Assembly: GCA_964016885.1 (NCBI GenBank)
Contig: OZ024743.1
Coordinates: 255,068,001-255,132,000, forward strand
DNA: 64,000 nt
Direction: 5' to 3'
Source: Eledone cirrhosa
Taxonomy: Eukaryota
In this document: positions 48,809-60,166 of the stretch, one piece after another
Numbering within the stretch: position 1 is the first letter of the stretch
Layout: every line of letters starts with the position of its first letter
The notes under the pieces: model-generated
Told to the model about the DNA's origin: nothing
Databases searched by the model: none
What the model saw: the letters and a program-made list of their open reading frames with translations, nothing else
Made by a program: the position numbers and the translations under genes

Positions 48809-49452
48809 AGCTTTGGTTTTCCATCAGAAATCCATCGGATTTATGAGGTTTTACAAAGCGAAACTGATCAGTAAGGGCCACTAGGAGAGGTAAATATTTA
48901 TATTATATTTTTTAATGTATTTTAAAAAATTGATTGAATTTTACTTGTTCAGCTTATCTTAATATTAAAATTCTGGTGTATCAAATTAATACCATTGAAC
49001 AAACTTGAATCATAGACAACCTATTTATTTCTAGGGGTACCTAGTATCCTTGGACATATTAACTTCATTCATTATGCTCCGTTATGTTGAGAACAAATCT
49101 GTTGTTCTATTTAGCTGCTATTTTTTTAGTAGTAATTGTAGACAGCAAGTCTTTGATTTTCCCGCTTTTACTTCGGTCCAGTTTACATACGGGTCACTTT
49201 TACGACCTTTCAGACCTTTATTTGCTGGCAGGAGGTCATATATTTTGTCGTTCCTGGGACGTTTAGCCCTAGGAAAGGAAAATGCTTTTCTGATGAGCTT
49301 TGGTTTTCCATCAGAAATCCATCGGATTTATGAGGTTTTACAAAGCGAAACTGATCGGTAAGGGCCACTAGGAGAGGTAAATATTTATATTATATTTTTT
49401 AATGTATTTTAAAAAATTGATTGAATTTTACTTGTTCTGCTTATCTTAATAT
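48809..49452 (+). mobile_element. (TA)n-flanked retrozyme-like unit A: period 487 nt, 157 nt terminal redundancy
   Basis: 48809-48965 equals 49296-49452 apart from ~2 substitutions; contains a hammerhead. Confidence 0.85.
49284..49366 (+). ncRNA. Type I hammerhead, intact core, long stem II
   Basis: CTGATGA-GCTTTG..CAAAGC-GAAA-CTGATCGG-TA|AGGGC; stem I is G-U rich. Confidence 0.85.
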
Positions 49453-49629
49453 ATATATATATATATATATATATATATATATATATATATATATATATAT
49501 ATACATGTGTTCCAATTGCAAATGACCAAGTTAGCTCGGTTGAAAAATACTAATTTAAAACAATATGGTTTGCCTGACTCGATTTAACGTAATAAATCAA
49601 TAAAAATAACAAACATATATCGGGCAAAT

Positions 49630-49708
49630 GATACCCGGACAGATGTAAATCTGTTTCGCAAGGATTATTAAGTGAAAGCTAGAATTCCTGTGCTCTTCTG
49701 CGGCTATC
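49630..49708 (-). ncRNA. Type I hammerhead with full stem III, U4A core variant
   Basis: GATAGCCG-CAGAAGA-GCA(C)AGGA..TCCTTGC-GAAA-CAGAT-TTAC-ATCTG-TC|CGGGTATC, inside a (TA)n-flanked segment 49503-49846. Confidence 0.8.
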
Positions 49709-49861
49709 CAGGAAAATGGAACACGTGTACTTTTATCTGTGTTCATCCCTCTCATATATCCAATTATATTACACGGGTCGGAAAGATTCCCTTCTTTGAG
49801 CTATTTAATTGTAAAAGACAATTCTGAGTTTCTAACTCAATCTATGATATATATATATATA

Positions 49862-52138
49862 TATTGTTATACTTGGGGAGGGTCATATTTGTGTAATATT
49901 GCCAGAATTAATAACAGAACACACTCACTGTTTGGTTGGTTTTCGCTTCTCGCTTTTATATCGCTAATCTAACTTACTCGGTCCTCAATGTTGCCATTGA
50001 CTGACCGACGGTCAAAAATAATACAGATACAATATAGACACAAACGCATATATATAGTTTATCATAAATCTTTCGTTGCACATCTGCAACATCGTCAGTG
50101 GTGCTATATTTTCCTCCTCTTGTATTGTATGTCTACGCCATTTTTATTCAGTCTGTCTATATATTTATTTATTTATTTGCTTGTTTGTTTATTTTGTTTT
50201 GTCTTCTTTGCGCATGCGTTTGCGTGTGTGTATAGTGTTTTGTTTGCTGTGTGATGGGTGACTAGTGTGTGTTTATGTGCTTGTTGTTATTGTGCTTGTG
50301 TATGTATTTATTTATTTATTTATCTTATTTTATTTACTTATTTATACTTCTCTTAGGTCAGTGTTGTTTGTTTGGGTGTTGTTGTTATTCCATTCATTCT
50401 TTCTGTTTAGCTTTGGTCTTCTAATTTCTATTTCACTGGCCTCTCTGATTTGCCTATCTGCTGGGTCATTTCTATGTTTAGATATTATTCTAATTCCTAT
50501 GTTGTCTATGTTACCGTCATGTTGTTGTCTAGCATGTTCGTATAGTACTGACCCGTTTTTTCGTCCTTTTAGTTCCCCCCAGTGTTGGTCTATCCTTTCA
50601 CCTATGCTACGAACTGTCTCACCTATGTATGTTGTTGTCATGTTTCTGCAAGTACCCTCTGTACATCTTATGCTATAGACTACGTTTCTAGTTTTACAGT
50701 TTATCCGGGGGTTCACCTTACATATGATACATTTCCTATTGGTACAGTGGGTTTTCTTAAAAGGGTAGGTTTTGCTGATCAGGAATTTTATGGTGGTTCC
50801 TGGCTTTTCTACCACCTTTATTTTTAAGTGGGTCTTTCTCAGGGCCTTTCTACACTGGTTAGCTAATTTCCCTCCAGGGGTAGCGTCCACAAACATGACA
50901 CTCTGGTATCTCTGGTTGTCGTACCATGAGGTGGCTTTCCCTATCTTATGTCTAGCCCTATCTAAGCTATTCCATGATTTGCTCCTGTATAATGGGCAAA
51001 TTCCTTTCATGTCCAGTTCTATGAGGGTCTTATACTTCTCCATGGCTCCTTCGTATACTCTGACTCTGTCTCTTTGGTTGTAGCCAGAGAACTGCATGCG
51101 GTTGATGAACTGTTGGATGTGTCTTTCCATTTCTGTTGGGTCGCACATACGGGACACATTCTTCATCACTTGTACCAAATCTGCGATCAGAATATTAAAC
51201 TTAGCACTACTGGACATTGCTGAGTTTTTGAGTATCAGGTATTTGGAGGCCATGGGTTTAGCATAGTGTGAGTGGAGAATTTGGGCTCTCTCGTTTATAG
51301 TGTTAATCCAGAGTTCTGTGTCTAATACAGGTAGTCTATTGTTAGGGTGTTTGGAAGTGAAGTCGATAGTTACAGTTACACTCTGGTGTATGGAATTAGC
51401 CTTCTGCTGGATGCTTTCCATCGTGCTACGTTCTAAATCAAACTTGTTAGTGCTCTCTAGTGGGGGTTTTCCTATAACTATATTGATATCGTATACATAA
51501 CGAGAGTACATGATGAGGTCTATGGAGCTCTCATTAAGGAGATCTTTAAGTCTCCTTTCCCACCATACCATGAACAAGTTGGCAACATCACTAGCTATGC
51601 TGACGCCGATGGCTGCTCCCTCATTTTAGGTGTAGATCTTCTCGTTGAACTTAAATATGTGGCTCGTTAGGGTAGTTTTGATACTAGCCTCTATTGCATG
51701 TGCGACCATTTTCCTTACCTGATCATTGTTTTGGGGGGTCCGTATAGCTTTGGTCCACCCAATCCACCTTCCCATGGGAGTCTTTTTATTATTGTTATCA
51801 TGGTGGTTGTTGTTGTTTCTATCATGAGCATTATTATTATTATTATGATTGCTAGATGTATTGTTGTTTACTTCACCGTTATTGTTGTTGTTACTGTTAT
51901 TTCTACCATTGTGGTTGTTGCTTTTATTATGTTTCTTGTTTTTGTTGTGCCTATCATTGATGTTGCTACATGTACTATTTCCATTATTACCACTCTGGTT
52001 ATTGTTGTTGTTGTTCGTATTGTTACCGTTATTATTACTGTGGTCGCTTCTGCTATGTCTGTGGTTAATGTTTCTATTATTATTGTTAATGTGGTTGTTG
52101 TTTTTCTGTCTATCGTTAGTAGGTTCTATCCTACTAGG
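49862..52138 (-). mobile_element. Penelope-like (Naiad-like) element, inverted left copy
   Basis: ORF 50342-51577: RT C-terminal half (YSRYVYD), CxxxxCxxC and GIY-YIG VVYSIRC..YIGET; Asn-rich segment 51785-52138. Confidence 0.9.
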
Positions 52139-57981: not shown

Positions 57982-59165
57982 GGCATTAAGGCATTAATGT
58001 CCTCGTAAAACGAGGACATTAGCAGTCCACATGCAAACGTATAGAGAGTGTAAATGCGTTAGGCATATACAGAACAGCTAGGTAGGAAACAAGCAATGGT
58101 ACTAGGCATATACAATTACTGTATGGCAAAGGTATCACATAAAATAACACAGGTTTACAAGCTTCCGGAAATTAAACCGTTAGAAGAATCACTCCAGAAC
58201 AACTCGAACCCTGGATAACAGTATAATAGGACCACATACAATCCATAGCTGTAACTAATTATAAACATTCACTTAAATAAAATATAACCAATATAATGGA
58301 AAAGAAAACAATAGTATTAATACTCTCAACACATGCACATTTGAACATTACAGAAAGAATTATCACACTACATCCACCATAAACTCATAATTTTAATACA
58401 CAAACATCTTTGTCTGCTTGATATGCTTGTAATATGCTTGCAATGTGCTTGCAATTCTTGAGCAAGGCATGACGTGCAATCGGACAGCATGGGAAGCCTT
58501 CTCCAAGGAGTCCACCGCGCCTTGGTAAATAAACGCTACTGGACAAACGGTTACCAAACTGTGGGCATAATTTAACAATTTTAAAGAGGAGTGGTGCATT
58601 AAAATGGGCCCCGGGGCATGTGCTCGTTCACTAGCAGCCCTAAACGAAAGGGTCGCCACCAGCTATTTCAAGGGCCCTTAAAAGGGCCGTGTATGCCATT
58701 CACTGACACCCCAGTAAGGAGGGGTAACCATCAACAATTTTACAAAAAAGCCCTAAAAAGCTGAAAAAAACCCAGTTCTTCACCTAATGTGGGCCCTAGA
58801 AACATAAGTAATACACATGTAAAATTTGAAAAAAATCAGTTCGTTTCAGGGCTTCAAACTCACAGACACATATTGACATCGAAGTTCTAGATATATATAT
58901 ATATTTATATATATATATATATATATATATATATATATATATATATATATATATATATATATATATATATATATATATATATATATATATATATATATAT
59001 ATATATATATATGTATATATATATATATATACATGTGTATATATATATGTATATATATATATATATGTATGTACATGTATATATACATGTATATGTATAT
59101 AGTGGTAGAACACTGGAAGGTAATATCCGTAGTGATAGAGCACTCAGTCCATGGGAGGAGTTAGG

Positions 59166-59319
59166 TAGAAGTTGTTACACAACAGTTAGTTCACCATACC
59201 AAGAACAATTGTTTCACCTTAGCGGATCCTCAGCTCATACAGATCACGAGCTGAGGATCCGCTAAGGTGAAACAATTGTTCTCGGTATGGTGAACTAACT
59301 GTTGTATAACAAACTTCTA
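59166..59319. ncRNA. Fold-back pair of minimal hammerheads (~70 bp arms, 11 nt loop)
   Basis: Right arm CGAG-CTGAGGA-TCC-GCTAA-GGT-GAAA-CAATTG-TT|CTCG (59247-59284); mirror copy on the minus strand ~59200-59236. Confidence 0.85.
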
Positions 59320-59430
59320 TATATGTATATATATATTTATATATATGTGTATATATATATATATATATATATATATATATATATATATATATATATATAT
59401 ATATATATATATATATATATATATATATAT

Positions 59431-60166
59431 ATATCATAAATCATGTCTTTAGAATCATCAGATAATAAAATATATACTATTTCTTCTTCTAATTAGCATA
59501 ATTAACTATATAAAAAAATCAATCAGAACAGCTATAAGAATAAATGCTCTTATGGGGAAATCTCCGACAAATAACCGAACGTAGCCTCTTCGCGGCGGCC
59601 CCAGTCTGGTATTTATCCAACATTTCGACAGCATGTAGAAACTGACTAAATATACCATCAACCATACACAATTGGTTGTAAAATTAAACTTAGAAGAAAT
59701 GCGCACATACCGTAATTATATCTCTACCATGGTTTCTTCCTTATTTTTGACATCCAAATAATAGGAATGTCCTGAGTTAGGAATCATAAGGAGACGAACT
59801 CAAAATCAGACATCTAGTTTTTCAATCCGATCCCGCCAAAATTAGATTAAAAAATGGCTAAAAATCGCTATGTGGCTGTGTTCAAGCCAGAGAGAAAGAA
59901 TGTGATTGGTTGCTTACGGCGGGTAGGCTTGTTGCTAGAAAGCGCAGCCAAATATCGCCAAATTTAATCTCAACCTATTGGGAGATTATTAAATATAAAG
60001 GTTAACATATACATAAAGTTATAGATATATATATGTGTTGCAACTGTTCACTTTTAAGCTATATGAAGAATTAATAAATTAAAAAATCAGAGCATTATAT
60101 CATAAATCATGTCTTTAGAATCATCAGATAATAAAATATATACTATTTCTTCTTCTAATTAGCATA
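59431..60166 (-). mobile_element. Retrozyme-like unit D: period 666 nt, ~70 nt redundancy
   Basis: 59431-59500 matches 60097-60166; (TA)n flanks; internal hammerhead. Confidence 0.8.
59720..59795 (-). ncRNA. Type I hammerhead with G5U substitution (probably inactive)
   Basis: TCTC-CTTATGA-TTCCT..GACATTC/GGATGTC..AGGAA-GAAA-CCATGG-TA|GAGA. Confidence 0.75.

What the first reader, a model, noticed from the sequence alone, without database searches (positions are those of the whole stretch)
48809..60166. Four non-coding, (TA)n-inserted, terminally redundant hammerhead elements: a candidate retrozyme system
Seen: four units with little shared sequence, each bounded by (TA)n and each consisting of one monomer plus a partial repeat. 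A is 48809-49452 (487+157), B 55428-56016 (542+~47), C 56281-56932 (527+~125), D 59431-60166 (666+~70). Each carries one type I hammerhead per monomer (weak candidate in B) and no recognisable protein. Known: Penelope pLTRs and metazoan non-LTR retrozymes carry type I hammerheads, and retrozymes produce circular RNAs. Inference: monomer plus a variable overlap is what reverse transcription running more than one turn round a circular RNA would leave. The (TA)n-inserted Naiad-like RT and GIY-YIG in the same zone are the likely partner.
Basis: partly seen in the sequence, partly recalled or inferred. Interest (0 to 1): 0.9.

Follow-up and report, generated by a model that had tools for sequence, protein, structure and literature searches.

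The report
Octopus ribozyme repeats copied Penelope-style
Four unrelated-looking non-coding repeats of 490-670 bases, each with a predicted self-cutting ribozyme and present in hundreds to over a thousand copies, carry the same paired insertion ends as this genome's Penelope-like retrotransposons, so they are likely passengers copied by those enzymes, likely from circular RNA.

Summary
The four units are real. Each belongs to a dispersed non-coding family (exact 24-25-mer counts 1327, 870, 591, 384; controls 0) with a conserved type I hammerhead. Family B's core covaries U3-A8/G3-C8; the window's B and D copies are damaged. The overlap is not freely permuted. Each family has two fixed 3' ends about 95-120 nt apart, fused to (TA)n; only 5' ends vary. 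In head-to-head two-armed insertions, one arm ends at each site in 42 of 43 cases. The genome's autonomous Penelope-like elements (PLEs) do the same (16 of 18), with 39-68 nt spacing: the known PLE 'tail'. The window PLE is RT then C-terminal GIY-YIG, so not Naiad. No PLE matches the four families in sequence or tail length, so the partner is unidentified. Copies read through the cleavage site, and their termination rate rises 2.4-fold after one full monomer, as a circular template predicts; repeat collapse is a rival. No RNA data were available. Verdict: new members of the non-LTR retrozyme / non-autonomous PLE class, with unusually direct genomic evidence of PLE mobilisation and asymmetric twin priming.

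The parts
48809..49452 (+). Unit A: single arm, 1.32 monomers of 487 nt, 3' end at site 1 (+92 from predicted cleavage) fused to (TA)n
   Evidence: family 1327 exact 25-mer hits including subfamily A2
49284..49365 (+). A type I hammerhead: core CUGAUGA at 49290, long loop II, palindromic loop III, predicted cut after 49360 (upstream half-copy cut site after 48873)
55428..56016 (-). Unit B long arm, 1.09 monomers of 542 nt, 3' end at site 2 (about +267 to +278)
   Evidence: family 870 exact hits
56015..56169 (+).
55690..55770 (-). B hammerhead with U3-A8 core; damaged in this copy (stem III deletion, stem I mismatch); predicted cut between 55695 and 55694
56281..56932 (-). Unit C long arm, 1.24 monomers of 527 nt, 3' end at site 1 (+57 to +61)
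   Evidence: family 591 exact hits
56934..56985 (+).
56333..56412 (-). C hammerhead, core CUGACGA, predicted cut between 56338 and 56337
   Evidence: both arms of locus L211 begin at +1/+2 of this site
59431..60166 (-). Unit D single arm, 1.1 monomers of 666 nt, 3' end at site 1 (+295)
   Evidence: family 384 exact hits
59720..59795 (-). D hammerhead; core mutated to CUUAUGA in this copy; predicted cut between 59725 and 59724
49861..54950 (.). Broken two-armed copy of an autonomous PLE (family F1: RT then C-terminal GIY-YIG with CxxC linker, 4117-nt unit, 1217-aa ORF in intact copies); both arms end at site 1; hammerhead-like motifs at 54699-54737 (+) and 50065-50103 (-)
47752..48146 (.). Second, short two-armed family-B insertion (site 2 end at 47752, site 1 end at 48146) with a tRNA-Pro(TGG) sequence (47942-48013, -) between the arms
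47273..47662 (.). Element E: inverted pair of an older ~180-nt hammerhead-bearing family (core at 47497, predicted cut after 47617)

Best explanation
A-D are high-copy non-coding hammerhead repeats with Penelope-type insertion ends, likely non-autonomous passengers (retrozymes) that a Penelope-like RT/GIY-YIG enzyme likely copies into (TA)n from a likely circular RNA. Shown: families of hundreds to over a thousand copies; two fixed 3' ends per family at short AU repeats about 95-120 nt apart; variable 5' ends; one arm at each site in two-armed insertions; read-through of the cleavage site; both passes and both arms share subfamily variants. Inferred: copies longer than one monomer are transcribed, the hammerheads cut (likely as dimers through the palindromic loop III) and the monomer is ligated to a circle. 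A PLE protein, likely a dimer, cuts both strands of (TA)n. Each freed 3' end pairs by 2-6 nt with one of the two RNA sites and primes cDNA. The two cDNAs join head to head, or one alone is kept. After one turn the enzyme must displace its own cDNA and stops more often.
For: Copy counts with zero control hits. Fixed ends: A +92/+193-202, A2 +126/+230-236, C +61/+181, D +295/+401, B +175/+266-278; 153 of 165 classed arm ends run into TA. Two-armed insertions: 42 of 43 fully classed ones pair site 1 with site 2; independence allows at most 50% (my binomial calculation, p about 5e-12). Autonomous PLEs: 16 of 18 loci with both outer ends seen pair two different sites (counted by hand). [quoted passage not shown] Concordance at polymorphic columns within an insertion 86-98% against 47-68% between insertions. 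Termination 1.68/kb in turn 1 against 4.06/kb in turn 2 (p 5e-6), also before the second cleavage site (4.3 vs 1.8/kb, p 2e-4). B core covariation U3-A8 in 20, G3-C8 in 7 of 29 parsed copies, plus a compensated stem I pair. Tandem PLE units 99.98% identical.
Against: No RNA evidence was obtained. No autonomous PLE with a matching tail length or sequence was found among about seven families sampled. In the anole PLE, hammerhead cleavage was not needed in vitro, unprocessed RNA was the main template, the start site did not differ between strands, and initiation was at a site not homologous to the target (PMC11167929). 5' ends pile up near the cleavage site in the second turn (11.8 vs 4.1/kb) and L211 starts exactly there, which fits linear cleaved templates for part of the copies. 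Within-insertion divergence is usually not lower than divergence to the nearest other copy. Several hammerheads have weak stems (10.1/11.1 mismatch, GUU triplet). 8 of 51 two-armed insertions had one unclassed end; the window's own F1 PLE breaks the pairing rule.
Confidence: 0.62

Rival explanations
1. They are PLE-mobilised passengers, but the template is linear multimeric RNA transcribed from tandem arrays, uncleaved or cut only at its 5' end. The rise in termination after one monomer comes from 5' run-off and from later collapse of long direct overlaps by recombination.
For: Arrays of 3-9 or more units exist. Second-turn pile-up near the cleavage site; L211 arms start at +1/+2. Hammerhead mutants still insert in vitro in PAc (PMC11167929).
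Against: Termination also rises before the second cleavage site is reached, including in D (RR 3.8). First-turn passage of the cleavage site shows no stop in A/A2 (about 2/kb). Variants inside young A arrays were private to each array in 19 of 20 cases, so no ordered array pattern was passed on.
Confidence: 0.27
2. They are detached pseudo-LTRs or deletion derivatives of still-unseen autonomous PLEs, spread mainly as 5'-truncated pieces of those PLEs and amplified locally by unequal crossing over, as proposed for vertebrate retrozymes.
For: The model is in bioRxiv 10.64898/2026.07.22.740005. A 9-mer A array shows a higher-order duplication pattern. PLE families were sampled only partly.
Against: Arms close on themselves head to tail instead of running into an ORF; 68 of 171 arms exceed one monomer. 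No ORF was fused to any of 68 single-arm 5' ends. Each dispersed copy has its own PLE-type ends, which local amplification cannot make. Origin from a pLTR in the distant past remains possible.
Confidence: 0.08
3. They are satellite-like or DNA-mobilised repeats that accumulate in fragile (TA)n tracts, and the hammerheads are chance or relics.
For: 17 of the window's 35 long TA tracts lie in 47-60.5 kb; two of the four window copies have damaged ribozymes.
Against: Strand-specific fixed 3' ends, 5' truncation, paired-site rule, compensatory core changes, shuffle control.
Confidence: 0.03

Closest known systems
Metazoan non-LTR retrozymes (Cervera and de la Pena 2020, PMC7229834; Li et al. 2026, 10.64898/2026.07.22.740005)
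   Same: Non-coding, low-GC repeats with one type I hammerhead per unit, in dispersed and tandem copies, living beside PLEs that are proposed as the mobiliser.
   Different: Units of 487-666 nt against about 170-400 nt given for invertebrates (within the 51-972 nt range of Li et al.); mostly 0.2-2-mers and two-armed inverted copies rather than arrays; (TA)n target with no visible target duplication; about 45-50 nt loop II; fixed paired 3' ends, which the parts of those papers I read do not describe; circular RNA not shown here.
Penelope-like elements: tail and inverted 5' copy (Craig et al. 2021, PMC8557442; Frangieh et al. 2024, PMC11167929)
   Same: 5' truncation, partial tandems, inverted arm, two internal RT start sites, tail usually at one end only, AT-rich target.
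   Different: No ORF; tail about 95-120 nt against 30-40 nt in print and 39-68 nt in this genome's PLEs; start sites have 2-6 nt TA microhomology; pairing of the two sites is nearly strict (42 of 43).
Non-autonomous Chlamys elements such as MRC1 (PMC8557442, passage read)
   Same: Non-autonomous PLE passengers with pLTRs and head-to-tail copies.
   Different: Those resemble their autonomous partner at the 3' end and the clade generally lacks canonical hammerheads; here no partner similarity was found.
PLE minimal hammerheads (Cervera and de la Pena 2014, PMC4209133)
   Same: Short helix I, palindromic loop III, U3-A8 core variant, proposed circular template giving more-than-unit copies.
   Different: Long loop II, mismatched base of stem II in B, C and D, a 9-bp stem III in B, and a natural G3-C8 core in a B subfamily.
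Naiad PLEs (PMC8557442)
   Same: (TA)n targeting, inverted structures, reported in Octopus spp.
   Different: Naiad has an N-terminal GIY-YIG and lacks canonical hammerheads; the window element has the opposite order and a hammerhead-like motif.

Membership tests
non-LTR retrozyme | Type I hammerhead in each unit | tested here: met
   Family-wide conservation and covariation; window B and D copies individually damaged
non-LTR retrozyme | Multiple copies, including tandem repeats of the unit | tested here: met
   for B only overlaps up to about 1.8 units were seen
non-LTR retrozyme | No protein coding, no LTR/PBS/PPT organisation | tested here: met
   Longest ATG ORF 25-95 aa; no fused PLE ORF at 68 single-arm 5' ends; PBS/PPT not searched separately
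non-LTR retrozyme | Self-cleavage of the RNA | not testable with these tools
   Indirect only: covariation, L211 5' ends at the predicted site
non-LTR retrozyme | Expression as circular RNA | not testable with these tools
   No RNA holder listed; indirect termination step
PLE-mobilised non-autonomous element | PLE insertion anatomy: fixed 3' end with optional tail, 5' truncation, partial tandem, inverted arm | tested here: met
   same anatomy in the genome's PLEs
PLE-mobilised non-autonomous element | Terminal similarity to a specific autonomous PLE | tested here: inconclusive
   No alignment to about seven sampled PLE families; best weak lead G4 (z 2-4.5); sampling incomplete
Ordinary pLTR of an autonomous PLE | Continuous with an RT/GIY-YIG ORF in a share of copies | tested here: not met
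   0 of 68 single-arm 5' ends fused; 4 of 68 have a PLE piece within 900 nt behind (TA)n
Naiad (for the window RT element) | GIY-YIG N-terminal to RT | tested here: not met
   1217-aa ORF has RT then GIY-YIG
Neptune/Nematis-type PLE (for the window RT element) | C-terminal GIY-YIG with a CxxC Zn-finger-like linker | tested here: met
   C-x4-C-x2-C before the GIY-YIG-like motif, feature as given in PMC8557442; motifs read by eye, Pfam gave only a weak RVT_1 hit
Neptune/Nematis-type PLE (for the window RT element) | RT phylogenetic placement | not tested
   No named reference set was available; clade left open

The most novel reading that the evidence does not exclude
Penelope-class integration is asymmetric twin priming: one protein dimer on one circular RNA uses a different fixed start site for each end of a double-strand break in (TA)n, which explains the tail, the inverted arms and the more-than-unit copies at once; these retrozymes are minimal circles that keep only a ribozyme and a long (~105 nt) two-site cassette, read by a PLE clade not yet found.
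Probability: 0.4. Interest if true: 0.75.

Novelty: new member of a known kind. Interest (0 to 1): 0.55.

Why it matters
Mobilisation of animal retrozymes by PLEs has been proposed from co-occurrence and pLTR similarity, and circular PLE templates have been a hypothesis since 2014. These families carry the PLE end signature on each dispersed copy, and give two measurable rules: one start site per arm, and a termination step after one monomer. Both can be tested in any PLE-rich genome and in the existing in vitro PLE system, with 500-nt non-coding templates. They also add natural hammerhead variants (G3-C8 and U3-A8 cores, long loop II) that Rfam misses.

Tried and rejected
Rfam scan: no hammerhead model hit. 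The look-up of sequencing runs: no RNA holder listed; the four runs of unknown kind laid on unit A gave only contigs and no information on RNA ends or junctions. A second CUGAUGA in D near site 1 was rejected as the core because it forms no stem I; the family core lies 66 nt before the cut. Intra-insertion against nearest-other divergence did not discriminate, because the youngest copies are nearest to all; replaced by the polymorphic-column test. The A coordinates were offset by a script error and were redone. Partner search: window PLE protein, Pfam GIY-YIG with 30 loci plus 20 hand-picked long-ORF regions of 150 hits, and a shared site-2 pattern (564 hits, 25 in the control; 30 loci plus 4 regions examined) gave only A2, C, D, a D-like copy, an unrelated minisatellite and chance hits. 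Short-window alignments of tails to PLE ends gave z up to 4.5 among many comparisons and are not counted as evidence. 5'-end clustering at the cleavage site is confounded by AT-rich and palindromic sequence there, and the C and D sampling patterns exclude first-turn run-offs. The search of earlier findings returned nothing. The supplement of PMC7229834 could not be read; it may list cephalopod retrozymes.
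Full report
Setting. The window is G000:C4:255068001-255132000 of a 3.0-Gb genome. The nearest named homologue of the window's RT is an Octopus vulgaris protein at 69% identity, so the host is likely an octopus; this is inference.

Observation. The four units, their periods (487, 542, 527, 666 nt) and their (TA)n borders are as described. A descriptor scan found type I hammerheads in A (cut after 49360) and C (minus strand, cut at 56338), and one in an unreported inverted repeat E. 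Three such hits in 13.4 kb compare with a mean of 0.005 in 200 shuffles. Rfam has no matching model. Monomers have no ATG ORF over 95 aa, and the hammerhead strand folds as a circle more stably than shuffles (z -2.4 to -7.3, only 12 shuffles each; the opposite strand gave -0.4 to -5.0).

Families. DNA searches gave 2060, 3774, 2487 and 3544 first-look candidates for A, B, C, D, with 39-40 scored each and best copies 88-98% identical. Exact 24-25-mers occur 1327, 870, 591 and 384 times, reversed controls 0. A has a 527-nt subfamily A2, and a related 459-nt family F exists. In all families the core starts 66-71 nt before the cut. Most D copies have CUGAUGA; the window copy has CUUAUGA. Family B has a 9-bp stem III and a core that is U3-A8 in 20 and G3-C8 in 7 of 29 parsed copies (of 54 insertions; 2 others), with a compensated stem I pair. 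U3-A8 is known from Schistosoma PLEs (PMC4209133), and a G3-C8 double mutant partly rescues cleavage (PMC11167929).

Ends. I mapped position-ordered samples: 70 A loci (30 returned plus 40 regions, one per remaining cluster of the first 100 listed hits), 30 C, 30 B and 15 of 30 D loci (the other 15 lie inside one long array). They collapsed to 123 insertions; 2 ran off the locus edge and were dropped, leaving 121. 3' ends on the hammerhead strand fall at two sites per family: A +92/+193-202, A2 +126/+230-236, C +61/+181, D +295/+401, B +175/+266-278. Each site ends in a short AU repeat that matches (TA)n by 2-6 nt, and 153 of 165 classed ends run into TA. 5' ends vary. Of 70 single-arm insertions 53 use site 1, 14 site 2 and 3 neither. 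Of 51 two-armed insertions, 8 had one unclassed end; of the other 43, 42 pair site 1 with site 2, 1 pairs site 2 twice and none pairs site 1 twice. Two of the 42 (L173, L174) may be one duplicated event. Independent choice allows at most 50%. The two arms, and successive passes of one arm, agree at 86-98% of polymorphic columns against 47-68% between insertions, so they come from the same source template.

Autonomous elements. The window RT belongs to a very young family (25,192 candidates, many identical proteins) with a 4117-nt unit, tandem copies 99.98% identical, and a 1217-aa ORF ordered RT, CxxC linker, GIY-YIG. Naiads have the reverse order and lack canonical hammerheads (PMC8557442), so the label is wrong; Neptune/Nematis type fits by the linker, without a tree. 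About seven PLE families were seen, most with their own minimal hammerhead and (TA)n-fused ends. Five show two end sites 39-68 nt apart. Counting by hand the loci where both outer ends were visible, 16 of 18 pair different sites; the exceptions are the window's F1 copy and one G6 locus. This is the PLE tail, printed as 30-40 nt and often at one end only (PMC8557442), and shown to lie between two internal RT start sites of an enzyme that extends both strands and is predicted to dimerise (PMC11167929). None of the PLEs has a tail near 105 nt or aligns to A-D, so the partner is open. No A-D copy was fused to an ORF: 4 of 68 single-arm 5' flanks held a PLE piece within 900 nt, always behind (TA)n, which is nesting.

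Template. 128 of 165 arms pass the cleavage site by more than 10 nt (the C and D samples favour this by design); 68 of 171 exceed one monomer and 7 exceed two. A linear unit-length RNA cannot give that. Termination away from the cleavage window is 1.68 per kb in the first turn and 4.06 in the second (RR 2.4, p 5e-6; 149 of 165 arms used), and the rise appears before the second cleavage site (4.3 vs 1.8, p 2e-4). A circle predicts this, since the enzyme meets its own cDNA after one turn. Collapse of long overlaps by recombination would mimic it. Against a pure circle, ends are enriched at the cleavage window in the second turn (11.8 per kb), B shows it in the first turn (8.6 vs 2.9), and L211 has both arms starting at +1/+2; some templates were probably linear and cleaved. 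Long arrays also grew after insertion: a 9-mer shows a duplicated variant pattern, while variants within young A arrays were private in 19 of 20 cases. Within-insertion divergence was usually not below the distance to the nearest other copy.

Why four in 11 kb. The zone holds 17 of the window's 35 long TA tracts, and each insertion leaves new TA ends; the cluster is a shared target hot spot (inference), not an operon-like system.

Comparison and novelty. Non-LTR retrozymes, their circular RNAs and the proposed PLE partner are published (PMC7229834, parts 2-4 of 6 read, supplement unreadable; bioRxiv 10.64898/2026.07.22.740005, parts 1-3 of 5 read). The circular-template idea for PLEs is in PMC4209133 (parts 1-2 of 4 read). 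PMC11167929: parts 1-2 of 4 plus passages. PMC8557442: passages only. Eight searches showed no paper on cephalopod retrozymes, on tails in retrozymes, or on strict pairing of the two start sites; the library lacks most subscription journals and Repbase, and unread supplements may bear on this. The elements work like retrozymes and meet the sequence-level criteria; cleavage and circular RNA are untested. Verdict: new members of a known kind, with mechanistic evidence that makes an open question testable. Interest 0.55.

Noticed in passing
window 47752-48146: A short two-armed family-B insertion has a complete tRNA-Pro(TGG) sequence with about 60 nt of upstream flank between its arms, possibly a template switch onto a pre-tRNA during joining.
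   Followed up: partly
window 47273-47662: Element E: older family (81-87% identity, 994 candidates) of ~180-nt hammerhead-bearing pieces, mostly single, no tandem and no PLE ORF in 23 loci examined.
   Followed up: partly
window 62000-64000 and L396: Two-armed copy of a second PLE family (G2) with a U3-A8-type hammerhead motif, mutated here; left arm ends at site 1 and right arm, just outside the window, at site 2.
   Followed up: yes
L377:6000-6920: Further retrozyme family F (459-nt period) homologous to A around the tail, same long-loop hammerhead, tail about 104 nt.
   Followed up: partly
L151:1800-2300: The F1 PLE protein has a ~170-residue Asn/His/Ser-rich low-complexity insert before the RT; the family looks currently active (dozens of identical RT segments).
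   Followed up: no
window 9012-19498: Head-to-tail copies of a non-LTR element with RT and a C-terminal restriction-like domain (ORFs of 1141 and 1117 aa), each bounded by (ATT)n; clade label not tested.
   Followed up: no
G000:C1:92.985-93.015 Mb (L235-L250, L409): A family-D array of about 30 kb with diverged units and higher-order spacing, that is a retrozyme turning into a satellite.
   Followed up: partly
window 57581-58043: 58-nt minisatellite, about six copies, 97% matches.
   Followed up: no
L442 (G000:C1:251.3-252.0 Mb): Very large array of a ~25-nt minisatellite, unrelated to the finding.
   Followed up: no
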